A stretch of 64,000 nt of DNA from the human T2T-CHM13v2.0 reference genome, Homo sapiens, in NCBI RefSeq assembly GCF_009914755.1, contig NC_060943.1; one strand, 5' to 3'. This document shows positions 13,915 through 19,610 of the stretch, piece by piece. Numbering within the stretch: the first letter of the stretch is position 1; each line of letters starts with the position of its first letter. The notes below the pieces were generated by a model. The model saw only the letters and a program-made list of their open reading frames with translations. It was not told where the DNA came from and did no database searches. The translations under genes were made by a program, and so were the position numbers.

Positions 13915-14256
<342 letters not shown>

Positions 14257-14439
14257 TTACACCAAACTCCAAGCAAACAAACATATGTATAATAGGACTC
14301 TGGGGAAAGGAGAGGAAGGAGAAAAATTTTTGTAGCATTAATGGCTGGAAACTTTTCAAACTTGGTGTAAACGTTAATTTACACAAACTCCAAGAAGTAT
14401 AAATACAAAGAGAGCCATATCTAGATTCATCGTAGTAAA

Positions 14440-14549
14440 TGTCAGGCCTTTGAGCTTAAGCTAAGCTATCATTATCTTTTGTGACTTGCACATACACATC
14501 TAGATGGCCGGTTCCTGCCTTAACTGATGACATTCCACCACAAAAGAAG
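14440..14549 (+). mobile_element. 5' LTR7 remnant (first 110 bp of U3 only)
   Basis: Aligns to the start of the 3' LTR, then jumps straight into leader sequence AACCCCTCAACCCC; no R/U5/PBS. Confidence 0.9.
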
Positions 14550-15834
14550 AACCCCTCAACCCCTTCTCCTTCACCGTTAGTGGCAAGTCCCGCTTTTCTG
14601 GGGGAGGGGCAAGTACCCCAACCCCTTCTCTCCGTGTCTCTACCCCTTCTCTGCTTTTCTGAGTGGCAAGAACCCCTCAACCCCTTCTCCTTCACCCTTA
14701 GTAGCAAGTCCCGCTTTTCTGGAGGAGGGACAGGAACCCCGACCTCTTATCTCTGCACCCCGATCCCTTATTTCCATGCCCAGACCTCTTATCTCTGTGC
14801 CCCATCCCTTATTTCTGCACCCCAACCTCTTATCTCTGTGCCCCAACCCCTTCTCTGCTTTTCTGGAGGGCAAGAACCCCCCCACCCCTTCTCCATGTCT
14901 CTACTCTCTTTTCTCTGGGCTTGCCTCCTTCACTATGGGCAAGCTTCCACCTTCCATTCCTCCTTCTCCCTTAGCCTGTGTTCTTAAGATCTTAAAACCT
15001 CTTCAACTCTCACCTGATGTAAAATCTAAGCATCTAATTTTCTTCTGAAACGCCGCTTGACCCCCATACAAACTTGACAGTAGTTCCAAATAGCCAGAAA
15101 ACAGCACTTTCAATTTTTCCATCCTACAAGATCTAAATAATTCTTATCATAAAATAGGCAAATGGTGTGAGGTGCCTGACATCCAGGCATTCTTTTACAC
15201 ATCAGGCTCTCCCTAGCCTCTGTTCCCAATGCAACTCGTCCCAAATCTTCCTTCTTTCCCTCCCACCTGTCCCCTCAGTCCCAACCCCAAGTGTCACTGA
15301 GTCTTTCTAATCTTCCTTTTCTACAGACCTATCTGACCTCTCCCCTCCTTGCTAGGCCGAGCTAGGTCCCAATTCTTCCTCAGCCTCCGCTCCTCCACCC
15401 TATAATCCTTTTATCGCCTCCCCTCCTCACACCCGGTCCCCCTTACAGTTTCGTTCCGTGACTAGCCCTTCCCCACCTGCCCAGCAATTTACTCTTAAAA
15501 AGGTGGCTGGAGCTAAAGGCATAGTCAAGGTTAATGCTCCTTTTCCTTTATCCCAAATCAGATAGTGTTTAGGCTCTTTTTCATCAAATATAAAAATCCA
15601 GCCCAGTTCATGGCTCGTTCGGCAGCAACCCTGAGACACTTTACAGCCCTAGACCCTAAAATGTCAAAAGGCCGTCTTATTCTCAATATACATTTTATTA
15701 CCCAATCTGCTCCCGACATTAAATAAAACTCCAAAAATTAAATTCCGGCCCTCAAACCCCACAACAGGACTTAATTAACCTCGCCTTCAAGGTGTACAAT
15801 AATAGAGGCAGCCAAGTAGCAACATATTTCTGAG

Positions 15835-16164
15835 TTGCAATTCCTTGCCTCCACTGTGAGACAAACCTCAGCCACATCTCCAGCACAAAAGAACCTCCAA
15901 ACGCCTAAACCGCAGTGGCCAGGCGTTCCTCCAGAACCGCCTCCCCCAGGAGCTTGCTACAAGTGCCAGAAATCTGGCCACCAGGCCAAGGACTGCCCGC
16001 AGCCCAGGATTCCTCCTAAGCCGTGTCCCATCTGTGCAGGACCCCACTGGAAATCGGACTGTCCAACTCACCTGGCAGCCACTCCCAGAGCCCCTGGAAC
16101 TCTGGCCCAAGGCTCTCTGACTGACTCCTTCCCAGATCTTCTCGGCTTAGCAGCTGAAGACTGA
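15835..16164 (+). pseudogene. HERV-H gag remnant (nucleocapsid zinc knuckles)
   Basis: [14 protein letters not shown] and [13 protein letters not shown]; upstream gag interrupted by stops. Confidence 0.85.
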
Positions 16165-16230
16165 TGCTGCCCGATTGCCTCGGAAGCCCCGTAGACCATC
16201 ACGGACACCAAGCTTTAAGTAACTCTCACA

Positions 16231-17170
16231 GTGGAAGGTAAGTCCGTCCCCTTCTTAATCAATACGGAGGCTACCCACTCCACATTACCTTCTTTTCAAA
16301 GGCCTGTTTCCCTTGCCTCCATAACTGTAGTGGGTATTGACAGCCAGGCTTCTAAACCTCTTAAAACTCCCCAACTCTGGTGCCAACTTAGACAATATTC
16401 TTTTATGCACTCCTTTTAGTTATCTCCACCTGCCCAGTTCCCTAATTAGGCCGAGACACTTCAAATTATCTGCTTCCCTGACTATTCCTGGATTACAGCT
16501 GCATCTCATTGCCGCCCTTCTTCCCAATCCAAAGCCTCCTTTGCATCCTCCTCTTGTATCCCCCCACCTTAACCCAAAGGTATAAGATACCTCTACTCCC
16601 TCCTTGGCGACCAATCATGCACCCCTTACCATCTCATTAAAACCTAATCACCCTTACCCCGCTCAATGCCAATATCCCATCCCACAGCATGCTTTGAAAG
16701 GATTAAAGCCTGTTATCACTCGCCTGTTACAGCATGGCCTTTTAAAGCCTATAAACTCTCCTTACAATTCCCCCATTTTACCTGTCCTAAAACCAGACAA
16801 GACTTACAGGTTAATTCAGGATCTGCGCCTTATCAACCAAATTGTTTTGCCTATCCACCCTGTGGTGCCAAACCCATATACTCTCCTATCCTCAGTACCT
16901 CCCTCCACAATCCATTATTCTGTTCTGGATCTCAAACATGCTTTCTTTCCTATTCCTTTGCACCTGTCATCCCAGCCTCTCTTTGCTTTCACTTGGACTG
17001 ACCCTGACACCAATCAGGCTCAGCAAATTACCTGGGCTGTACTGCCTCAAGGCTTCACAGACAGACCCCATTACTTCAGTCAAGCCCAAATTTCATCCTC
17101 ATCTGTTACCTATCTTGGCATAATTCTCATAAAAACACACGTGCTCTCCCTGCTGCTTGTGTCCGATTAA
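16231..17170 (+). pseudogene. HERV-H pro/RT remnants (non-functional)
   Basis: Protease motif decayed to FLINTEATHS (no catalytic DTG); RT motifs YRLIQDLRLIN, SVLDLKHAFF, WAVLPQGF; YxDD region absent; frameshifts. Confidence 0.85.
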
Positions 17171-18962
17171 TCTCCCAAACCTCGATCCCTTACAAAACAA
17201 CAACTCCTTTCCTTCCTAGGCATGGTTAGTTCGGTCAGAATTATTACACAAGAGCCAGGACCGCACCCTGTAGCCTTTCTGCCCAAACAACTTGACCTTA
17301 CTGTTTTAGCCTAGCCCTCATGTCTCCGTGCAGCGGCTGCCGCTGCTTTAACACTTTTAGAGGCCCTCAAAATCACAAACTATGCTCAATTCACTCTCTA
17401 CATTTCTCATAATTTCCAAAATCTATTTTCTTCCTCACACCTGACGCATATACTTTCTGCTTCCTGGCTCCTTCAGCTGTACTCACTCTTTGTTAAGTCC
17501 CACAATGACCATTGTTCCTGGCCCGGACTTCAATCCGGCCTCCCACATTATTCCGGATACCACACCTGACCCCCATGACGGCATCTCTCTGATCCACCTG
17601 ATGTTCATCCCATTTCCCCACATTTCCTTCTTCCCTGTTCCTCACCCTGATCACGCTTGATTTATTGATGGCAGTTCCACCAGGCCTAATCGCCACACAC
17701 CAGCAAAGGCAGGCTATGCTATAGTACAAGCCACTAGCCTGCCTCTTAGAACCTCTCACTTCCTTTCCATTGTGGAAATCTATCTTCAAAGAAATAAATT
17801 CTCAGTGTTCCATCTGCTATTCTACTACTCCTCATGGATTATTCAAGCCCCCTCCCTTCCCTACACATCAACTCGAGGATTTGCCCCCACCCAGGACTGG
17901 CAAATTAGCTTTACTCAACATGCCCCGAGTAAGATAACTAAAACACCTCTTAGTCTAGGTAGACACTTTCACTGGATAAGTAGAGTCCTTTCCTACAGGG
18001 TCTGAGAAGGCCACCACAGTCATTTCTTCCCTTCTGTCAGACATAATTCTTCAGTTTAGCCTTATCATTCCCTTCTGTCAGACGTAATTCCTCAATTTAG
18101 CCTTCCCACCTCTATACAGTCTGATAACAGACCAGCCTTTATTTGTCAAATCAGCCAAGCATTTTTTCAGGCTCTTAGTATTCAGTGACAGACTAAAACA
18201 CACCTCACCAACCTCAGCCACCAACTTAAAAAGGACTGGACAATATTTTTACCACTTTCGCTTCTCAGAATTCAGGCCTGTCCTCAGAATGCTACAAGAT
18301 ACAGCCCATTTAAGTTCCTGTATAGACACTCCTTTTTATTAGGCCCCAGTCTCATTCCAGACACCAGACCAACTTAGACTGTGCCCCCAAATAACTTGTC
18401 ATCCCTACTATCTTCTGTCTAGTCATACTCCTATTCACCGTTCTCAACTACTCATGCATGCCCTGCTCTTGTTTACACTGCCAGTTTACACAGTTTCTCC
18501 AAGCCATCACAGCTGATATCTCCTCGTGCTATCCCCAAACTGCCACTCTTAACTCTTGAAGTAAATAAATAATCTTTGCTGGCAAGGCTATGCTGAACCT
18601 CCTTAGGCACTCTCTAATTAGATGTCCTAGGTCCTCCCAATTCTTAGTCCTTTAATACCTGTTTTTCTCCTTCTCTTATTCCGTTTAGTTTTTCAATTCA
18701 TACAAAACCGTATCCAGGCCATCACCAATCATTCTACACGACAAATGTTTCTTCTAACAACCCCACAATATCACCCTTTACCACAAAATCTTCCTTCAGC
18801 TTAATCTCTCCCACTCTAAGTTCCCACGCCGCCCCTAATACCGCTGGAAGCAGCCCTAAGAAACATCACCCATTATCTCTCCATACCACCCCCAAAAATT
18901 TTCACTGTCCCAACACTTTACTACTATTTCATTTTATTTTTCTTAATATAAGAAGACAGGAA

Positions 18963-19610
<648 letters not shown>

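What the first reader, a model, noticed from the sequence alone, without database searches (positions are those of the whole stretch)
14440..14492. APOBEC3G-like plus-strand C>T scar confined to the start of the HERV-H 5' LTR U3
Seen: compared with the 3' LTR (from 18963), the first 53 bp of the 5' LTR has 8 C>T differences (14450, 14456, 14457, 14467, 14477-14479, 14486), one extra T and one CpG G>A (14492). The next about 57 bp are identical. Seven of the 8 changes hit the 3' C of a CC, and the 5'-most C of every C-run is spared (CCC>CTT, CC>CT, CCCC>CTTT). Established: LTRs are identical at integration; APOBEC3G deaminates the 3' C of CC on ssDNA, normally giving G>A on the plus strand, but plus-strand C>T can arise in the 5' LTR U3, which is transiently single-stranded during plus-strand displacement. 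Inference: this is a fossil of restriction-factor attack on the plus-strand strong-stop DNA of this provirus. It would also badly inflate LTR-LTR dating.
Basis: partly seen in the sequence, partly recalled or inferred. Interest (0 to 1): 0.8.

Follow-up and report, generated by a model that had tools for sequence, protein, structure and literature searches.

The report
APOBEC3G-type scar on truncated HERV-H LTR
A 37-base stretch at the start of an ancient retrovirus remnant on human chromosome 19 carries eight one-directional C-to-T changes of the kind made by the antiviral enzyme APOBEC3G; it is a real single molecular fossil, but whether it arose before or after the virus inserted cannot yet be told.

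Summary
The 5' LTR (14440-14549) differs from the 3' LTR (18963-19374) by 8 plus-strand C>T changes (14450-14486), one extra T and one CpG G>A. The next 57 bp are identical.

- **Polarity:** the Ts are derived. 29 of 29 related LTRs carry C at 7 sites and 28 of 29 at the eighth. The T haplotype is unique in the genome.
- **Context:** 7 of 8 CC-context Cs are changed against 1 of 11 other Cs (p=0.0012). None of the 5 CC sites in the next 57 nt is changed.

- **Truncated LTR:** the "5' LTR" is only a 110-bp stump. About 0.8 kb (rest of the LTR, primer-binding site, part of the leader) is missing. The junction is unique and has 3 nt of microhomology, 57 bp from the cluster.
- **No G>A excess:** the other 4.8 kb shows none. 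Ordinary virion APOBEC3G hypermutation is therefore not seen.

My reading is one burst of APOBEC3G-type deamination on single-stranded plus-strand DNA. The timing is open: reverse transcription (about 0.45) or post-integration break repair (about 0.40). It is a new member of a known kind, of moderate interest.

The parts
14435..14439 (.). Left copy of the 5-bp target-site duplication GTAAA, in an old L1 fragment
   Evidence: The host flank is continuous across the empty site in one L1 relative.
14440..14549 (+). 5' LTR stump: only the first 110 nt of U3
   Evidence: Homology to the 3' LTR and to every related LTR ends at 14549.
14450..14486 (+). Cluster of 8 derived C>T changes (14450, 14456, 14457, 14467, 14477-14479, 14486), 7 of them in CC context
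   Evidence: C in 29 of 29 related LTRs at 7 sites and 28 of 29 at 14479; statistics; the haplotype is unique.
14472..14473 (+). One extra T inside the cluster (TCATATC to TCATTATC)
   Evidence: absent from the 3' LTR and from 29 of 29 related LTRs.
14492..14492 (+). G>A at a CpG, probably independent methyl-CpG decay
   Evidence: A also in 3 of 29 related LTRs.
14500..14500 (+). Private T shared with 19023 in the 3' LTR (ATCTAGATGG), marking the two LTRs as sisters
   Evidence: C in 29 of 29. C in 54 of 54. One solo LTR on contig 8 shares the T and has C at all 8 cluster sites.
14547..14549 (+). Deletion junction with 3-nt microhomology (AAG) between LTR nt 108-110 and a leader repeat unit
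   Evidence: all other genomic hits split at query 55 and 53, and only this locus spans the junction. Also.
14550..14566 (+). Last 17 nt of a leader repeat unit, joined directly to the LTR stump
   Evidence: the same 17 nt precede the next unit at 14671-14687.
14567..14900 (+). C-rich tandem repeat units of the leader (121-nt spacing; units start at 14567 and 14688)
   Evidence: (D10, D15). Unit number varies among related proviruses.
14901..18962 (+). Degraded internal region, with a Gag zinc knuckle (15820-16164) and a reverse-transcriptase remnant (16586-17170)
   Evidence: zf-CCHC E=1.3e-8, RVT_1 E=1e-10. No G>A excess.
18963..19374 (+). Complete 3' LTR (412 nt), carrying the ancestral C at all 8 sites
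19375..19379 (.). Right copy of the target-site duplication GTAAA

Best explanation
One burst of CC-specific cytidine deamination, of the APOBEC3G type, struck the plus strand of the first ~50 nt of U3 while that strand was single-stranded. Copying of the uracils fixed 8 C>T changes in the 5' LTR only.

I rate the enzymatic, single-event reading at about 0.85. The timing I commit to, narrowly, is reverse transcription. The plus strand primed at the polypurine tract is the only molecule whose changes end up in the 5' LTR and not the 3' LTR.

The most economical version ties the scar to the truncation. The nascent plus strand stopped after 110 nt, was displaced from its 5' end and edited there. 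Its 3' end then switched through 3 nt of homology to the leader (a premature second-strand transfer). The provirus then integrated with normal ends.

- **Shown:** the derived state, strand, context, clustering, LTR truncation, junction microhomology and target-site duplication.
- **Inferred:** the enzyme, the single-stranded state and the timing.
For: - **Derived and unique.** C in 29 of 29 related LTRs at 7 sites and 28 of 29 at the eighth. None of 54 other LTR starts has more than 3 private C>T changes. The haplotype occurs once in the genome at 3 or fewer mismatches.
- **One strand, CC context, near saturation.** 7 of 8 CC sites are changed against 1 of 11 other Cs, p=0.0012.
- **5' LTR only.** RNA editing or minus-strand editing of U3 would mark both LTRs (logic of reverse transcription). 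The 3' LTR is ancestral.
- **Position.** The cluster begins 11 nt inside the provirus. The two CC sites in the 53-nt host flank (14390, 14415) are intact. One L1 relative shows no CC>CT candidate there.
[quoted passage not shown] It accounts for 20 of 23 large 5' deletions (PMC12657518, section 10 and passages read).
- **Polarity of the enzyme.** 3'-to-5' processive action of APOBEC3G is cited in PMC1635257 (passage).
- **Precedent.** Plus-strand C>T in the HIV-1 5' U3 and primer-binding site under APOBEC3G is recalled from Yu et al. 2004. That paper is not held.
Against: - **No minus-strand editing.**
  - Against 7 sisters there are 13 private G>A changes (4 at GG) among 97 private changes. 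The sisters themselves show 11-19.
  - In the 3' 1.9 kb against 24 relatives, G>A is 7 of 255 Gs and C>T is 17 of 603 Cs. There is none of the expected peak just 5' of the polypurine tract.
- **Canonical model.** A review states that in canonical reverse transcription only the minus strand is single-stranded (PMC4488724, passage).
- **Target-site duplication.** A perfect 5-bp duplication needs two finished double-stranded ends. That is demanding for an aberrant transfer product.
- **Deletions are common.** Deletions of this size accumulate in old proviruses. This one has others of 165, 210 and 57 nt.
- **Sharp island.** The edited zone is sharply bounded. The CC at 14447-14448 and 5 CC sites in 14493-14549 are untouched. 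A simple 5' tail does not fully predict this.
- **No recurrence.** There is no second comparable example among 54 LTR starts.
Confidence: 0.45

Rival explanations
1. Post-integration editing at a chromosomal break. A double-strand break in the integrated 5' LTR or leader was resected 5' to 3'. This left the plus strand single-stranded to the left of the break, and APOBEC3G (or another CC-preferring deaminase) edited it. Microhomology-mediated joining then deleted about 0.8 kb. Fill-in running leftwards from the junction protected the nearest 57 nt first.
For: - The cluster lies 57-99 bp from a unique deletion junction with 3-nt microhomology.
- C>T falls on the strand whose 3' end points at the junction, as resection predicts (inference).
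- No minus-strand editing of the provirus is needed, which matches.
- Germline CC/CCC-type clusters consistent with APOBEC3G are described in hominid genomes. APOBEC3G recruitment to double-strand breaks is cited there (PMC4864454, abstract, section 4 and passages read).
- The 1-nt insertion inside the cluster fits error-prone fill-in (inference).
Against: - There is no mirror G>A cluster right of the junction. With 36 relatives only one private G>A (14703) remains within 300 bp. An earlier hint of four from 7 sisters dissolved.
- The left limit of editing would coincide with the provirus end by chance.
- 7 of 8 CC sites edited within 37 nt is denser than the clusters defined in PMC4864454, which set aside changes 10 bp or less apart.
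- That the deletion and the cluster arose together is assumed, not shown.
Confidence: 0.4
2. Not enzymatic editing. Either gene conversion or templated repair from a T-rich LTR-like donor that has since been lost, or piecemeal point mutation.
For: - LTR position 46 (14486) is T in another LTR subfamily.
- Single C>T changes at the same C-runs occur sporadically in other copies, at positions 17, 18, 28, 37 and 39.
Against: - No sequence within 3 mismatches of the T haplotype exists elsewhere in the genome.
- The best non-self matches to the edited 110 nt are 91-92% identical, the same as unedited LTRs (40 of 841 candidates scored).
- The other subfamily's diagnostic changes (positions 23, 32, 33, 55, 57-59) are absent here.
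- The chance of 8 independent same-direction changes in 37 nt is about 8e-10.
Confidence: 0.1
3. Assembly or sequencing artefact in this copy of the genome.
For: None found. Only one assembly could be read.
Against: The changes are clean substitutions in unique sequence. The flanks are intact and the reading on both sides is normal. Such a context-specific error pattern is not a known assembly error (general knowledge).
Confidence: 0.02

Closest known systems
Germline C-coordinated clusters attributed to APOBEC3G in hominid genomes (Pinto et al. 2016, PMC4864454; abstract, section 4 and passages read)
   Same: Strand-coordinated C>T changes enriched at CC/CCC, arising in one event and inherited.
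   Different: This cluster lies in a proviral LTR, is far denser (8 changes in 37 nt, with adjacent Cs hit), and can be polarised by the sister LTR rather than by outgroups. That study set aside changes 10 bp or less apart.
G>A hypermutated endogenous retroviruses (Jern et al. 2007, PMC2041998; Knisbacher and Levanon 2016, PMC4866542; passages read)
   Same: A deaminase footprint fossilised in a provirus.
   Different: Those are minus-strand events, seen as plus-strand G>A across the genome with a gradient. Both papers use C>T as the negative control. Here the polarity is the opposite, the changes are confined to ~40 nt, and the G>A signal is absent.
Rare plus-strand C>T in the 5' LTR U3 and primer-binding site of HIV-1 made with APOBEC3G (Yu et al. 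2004, Nat Struct Mol Biol 11:435; recalled, not held)
   Same: The same strand, the same LTR, the same enzyme context.
   Different: In that system, as I recall it, the changes accompanied heavy minus-strand editing. Here there is none. This is an ancient HERV-H, not an experimental lentivirus.
HIV-1 proviruses with defective 5' LTRs from premature second-strand transfer (PMC12657518; section 10 and passages read)
   Same: [quoted passage not shown]
   Different: Nothing about plus-strand editing appeared in section 10 or the passages I saw for 'plus-strand' and 'APOBEC3G'. Here the time of the deletion is unknown.
Kataegis at rearrangement breakpoints in cancer genomes (recalled; Pinto et al., cite Nik-Zainal 2012 and Roberts 2012 for enzyme-induced clusters in cancer)
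   Same: A strand-coordinated C>T cluster next to a junction, with the polarity expected from resection.
   Different: CC context rather than TC. The event is germline. It is one-sided, with no G>A run on the other side.

Membership tests
APOBEC3G-type editing cluster | All changes are C>T on one strand | tested here: met
   8 of 8 substitutions in 14450-14486 are plus-strand C>T.
APOBEC3G-type editing cluster | The target is the 3' C of CC | tested here: met
   7 of 8 changes are in CC context. CC sites are edited 7 of 8 against other Cs 1 of 11, p=0.0012.
APOBEC3G-type editing cluster | The changes are derived and clustered beyond chance | tested here: met
   C in 29 of 29 or 28 of 29 related LTRs. 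Poisson chance about 8e-10. 0 of 54 other LTR starts is comparable.
APOBEC3G-type editing cluster | The APOBEC3G protein itself was the agent | not testable with these tools
   Inferred from context only. That APOBEC3G is the CC-preferring member is stated in PMC4864454 and PMC1635257.
Retroviral hypermutation during reverse transcription (minus strand) | Excess of plus-strand G>A, mainly GG>AG, over C>T in the proviral body | tested here: not met
   13 G>A (4 at GG) among 97 private changes, against 11-19 in the sisters. 7 of 255 Gs against 17 of 603 Cs in the 3' 1.9 kb.
Plus-strand strong-stop DNA editing | Change present in the 5' LTR and absent from the 3' LTR, on the plus strand | tested here: met
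Plus-strand strong-stop DNA editing | Present at the moment of integration (shared by all orthologues) | not testable with these tools
   No primate genomes are held. The flank cannot be polarised because its L1 relatives are only 67-73% identical.
Break-associated cluster (kataegis-like) | Adjacent to a rearrangement junction, with the polarity expected from resection | tested here: met
   The junction at 14549/14550 is unique in the genome, has 3-nt microhomology, and lies 57 bp from the last changed site.
Break-associated cluster (kataegis-like) | Complementary (G>A) cluster on the other side of the junction | tested here: not met
   Only 1 private G>A within 300 bp to the right, judged against 36 relatives. 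This feature is not obligatory.
Premature second-strand-transfer provirus | [quoted passage not shown] | tested here: met
   LTR nt 111-412, the primer-binding site and part of the leader are missing. The primer-binding site is present in 7 of 7 sisters.
Premature second-strand-transfer provirus | Deletion formed before integration | not testable with these tools
   Needs orthologues.
HERV-H (LTR7-type) provirus | Two LTRs with a target-site duplication, Gag and Pol remnants, and a TGGTGCC-type primer-binding site in the family | tested here: met
   Target-site duplication GTAAA. zf-CCHC and RVT_1 matches. Primer-binding site in 7 of 7 sisters. That it pairs with tRNA-His is recalled.
HERV-H (LTR7-type) provirus | Match to a curated LTR7 or HERVH-int repeat model, and subfamily assignment | not tested
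No repeat library is on hand.

The most novel reading that the evidence does not exclude
The scar and the truncated LTR record a single failed step of reverse transcription some tens of millions of years ago.

A 110-nt nascent plus strand was peeled off its template and deaminated by APOBEC3G on its exposed 5' half. It then jumped prematurely into the leader, and the product still integrated.

If so, this would be a natural fossil of plus-strand attack by a restriction factor, coupled to a plus-strand-transfer defect. It would also show that plus-strand C>T clusters, routinely used as the negative control in screens for edited retroelements, contain a true editing signal.
Probability: 0.3. Interest if true: 0.65.

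Novelty: new member of a known kind. Interest (0 to 1): 0.45.

Why it matters
- **Dating.** A single enzymatic event can add 8 differences to an LTR pair: 10 in 110 nt here against 0-3 in the sister proviruses. LTR-LTR dating of this element would be badly wrong. Clustered same-strand changes should be masked before dating.
- **Screen design.** Screens for edited retroelements treat plus-strand C>T clusters as background (PMC4866542; PMC2041998). A locus where such a cluster is clearly enzymatic argues for looking at the 5' ends of 5' LTRs separately.
- **A testable question.** The pairing of the cluster with a deletion junction asks whether APOBEC3G-type germline clusters mark break repair or aberrant reverse transcription. 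That can be tested genome-wide and across primates.

Tried and rejected
- **RNA editing or minus-strand editing of U3.** Rejected, because either would mark both LTRs.
- **Known LTR subfamily or conversion donor.** Rejected.
- **Mirror G>A cluster right of the junction.** Seven sisters hinted at four GG>AG changes. Only one survived comparison with 36 relatives.
- **Polarising the host flank.**
  - The flank is an old L1 whose relatives are 67-73% identical, too far for a firm call.
  - The one relative spanning the site shows no CC>CT candidate.
  - The flanking 122-bp tandem duplication has 4 differences, none a C>T in the copy nearer the provirus.
- **DNA secondary structure as the cause of the sharp boundary.** The 109-nt strand folds no better than shuffles (z=0.73).
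- **Wider two-LTR screen.** The screen therefore stayed at 54 LTR starts and 7 LTR pairs.
- **Second example.** The 5' LTR in L050 (contig 23) has C>T at positions 18, 36 and 37, and its contig-24 paralogue has 18 and 37. Its 3' partner was not among the 40 scored hits, so 5' specificity is unknown.
- **Sources not available.** Yu 2004 and Mbisa 2007 are not held.
- **Literature searches.** Searches for plus-strand editing of HERV-H listed no title or abstract start reporting such a case. Supplements were not opened.

Full report
**What is there**

The window holds a short, degraded provirus.
- It runs from 14440 to 19374 and is flanked by a 5-bp target-site duplication, GTAAA, at 14435-14439 and 19375-19379.
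- The host DNA is an old L1 fragment. One L1 relative aligns straight through the empty site.
- The 3' LTR is complete (18963-19374, 412 nt). It is 93-95% identical to the 39 best of 2898 candidate LTRs in the same genome.
- The internal part keeps a Gag zinc knuckle and a reverse-transcriptase remnant.
- Seven of seven sister proviruses carry a TGGTGCC-type primer-binding site after their 5' LTR.
No repeat library was on hand.

**The observation**

The 5' copy (14440-14549) was aligned with the start of the 3' LTR.
- There are 8 C>T differences, at 14450, 14456, 14457, 14467, 14477-14479 and 14486.
- There is one extra T (14472/3) and one G>A at a CpG (14492).
- The following 57 nt are identical.

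**Polarity**

I aligned the first ~110 nt of the 29 related LTRs for which loci were cut. Ten further scored hits had no locus and were not examined.
- All 29 have C at seven of the sites, and 28 of 29 at 14479.
- None has the extra T.
- 26 of 29 have G at 14492.

Both LTRs of this provirus share a T at 14500/19023 where 29 of 29 and 54 of 54 other copies have C. They are therefore sisters from one integration. A solo LTR on contig 8 that shares this T has C at all eight sites.

The T haplotype occurs once in the genome at 3 or fewer mismatches. The best non-self matches to the edited 110 nt are 91-92% identical, no better than unedited LTRs (40 of 841 candidates scored). The Ts are therefore derived, private and not a subfamily state. 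The one exception is LTR position 46 (14486), which is also T in a second subfamily.

**Context and chance**
- In the ancestral first 52 nt, 7 of 8 Cs preceded by C are changed, against 1 of 11 other Cs (Fisher p=0.0012).
- The first C of each run is spared.
- In the next 57 nt, none of 5 CC-context Cs is changed (p=0.0047).
- Seven sister proviruses have LTR pairs 1.7-4.4% divergent, with 0-3 differences in the first 110 nt. None has more than 3 same-direction C/T differences in any 53 nt.
- At their rate, 8 such changes in 37 nt have a Poisson probability of about 8e-10.
- Among 54 distinct other LTR starts (28 classed 5', 16 classed 3', 10 unclassed), none has more than 3 private C>T changes. 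Those 54 came from 68 hits. Duplicates were collapsed, and hits not covering positions 15-50 or lying at a locus edge were dropped.

*1. The 5' LTR is a 110-bp stump.*
- After 14549 the sequence continues with the last 17 nt of a 121-nt leader repeat unit, then whole units from 14567.
- Relative to the sisters, LTR nt 111-412, the primer-binding site and the first part of the leader are missing. That is about 0.8 kb, give or take a repeat unit.
- A search across the junction finds only this locus spanning it. All other hits split at query positions 55 and 53, which defines 3 nt (AAG) of microhomology.

*2. The rest of the provirus shows no minus-strand editing.*
- Against 7 sisters there are 97 private changes, of which 13 are G>A (4 at GG) and 26 are C>T. 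The sisters, treated the same way, have 11-19 G>A.
- In the last 1.9 kb, against 24 relatives, private G>A is 7 of 255 Gs and C>T is 17 of 603 Cs. These are equal per-base rates.
- There is nothing just 5' of the polypurine tract, where editing should peak. The twin-gradient logic for that expectation is in PMC1635257 (passages).

**Mechanism**

The pattern is one strand, the CC dinucleotide, near saturation and a sharp island. That is what a CC-preferring single-strand DNA deaminase does. APOBEC3G is the family member with that preference (PMC4864454 section 4; PMC1635257). RNA editing and minus-strand editing are excluded, because U3 changes made there reach both LTRs. Two timings fit.

*(a) During reverse transcription.*
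- Only the plus strand primed at the polypurine tract feeds the 5' LTR alone.
- Plus-strand C>T in the HIV-1 5' U3 under APOBEC3G is something I recall from Yu et al. 2004, which is not held.

*(b) After integration.*
- A break that was resected would expose exactly this strand to the left of the junction.
- APOBEC3G-type germline clusters, and recruitment of the enzyme to breaks, are in print (PMC4864454).

*Weighing the two.*
- Against (a): the missing G>A signal, and the demand for two finished ends to give a perfect target-site duplication.
- Against (b): no mirror G>A cluster on the right, and the coincidence of the island with the provirus end.
- DNA folding does not explain the island's boundaries.
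- I put (a) at 0.45, (b) at 0.40 and non-enzymatic causes at about 0.1.

**Verdict**
- The claim that it is a fossil of attack on strong-stop DNA is only one of two live readings.
- It is a new member of a known kind, namely inherited deaminase clusters. It has an unusual polarity and an informative neighbour, the deletion junction.
- It is worth a primate comparison and a genome-wide screen, which I could not run here.

Noticed in passing
window 14143-14386: A 122-bp tandem duplication in the L1 flank just upstream of the provirus. The two copies differ at 4 of 122 positions.
   Followed up: partly
window 14567-14900, and related loci: The C-rich leader repeat (121-nt units) varies in copy number among related proviruses. 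Several loci carry three or more tandem copies.
   Followed up: partly
L050:652-713, and L057 (contigs 23 and 24, same flank): A 5' LTR with three private C>T changes in the same C-runs (LTR positions 18, 36, 37). Its paralogue on contig 24 has 18 and 37. The 3' partner was not found among the 40 scored hits.
   Followed up: partly
L032-L038 (7 sister proviruses): Pooled LTR-pair differences lean towards T or A in the 5' LTR. 5'T/3'C is 22 against 5'C/3'T 11, and 5'A/3'G is 20 against 5'G/3'A 12. Together that is 42 against 23, binomial p=0.025. This may be faster CpG decay of 5' LTRs. It was not separated by context.
   Followed up: no
window 18027-18104 and 18194: A 41-nt tandem duplication (18027-18063 and 18068-18104) and a ~57-nt deletion, both private to this provirus relative to the 7 sisters.
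   Followed up: no
window 19026-19107: The LTR itself contains a 31-nt direct repeat spaced 51 nt apart (19026-19056 and 19077-19107). It is present in related LTRs too.
   Followed up: no
L074 (contig 8, 63922231 onward): A solo LTR flanked by ATAAA on both sides. It shares the otherwise private T of this provirus's LTRs, so it is a likely close sibling of the source element.
   Followed up: partly
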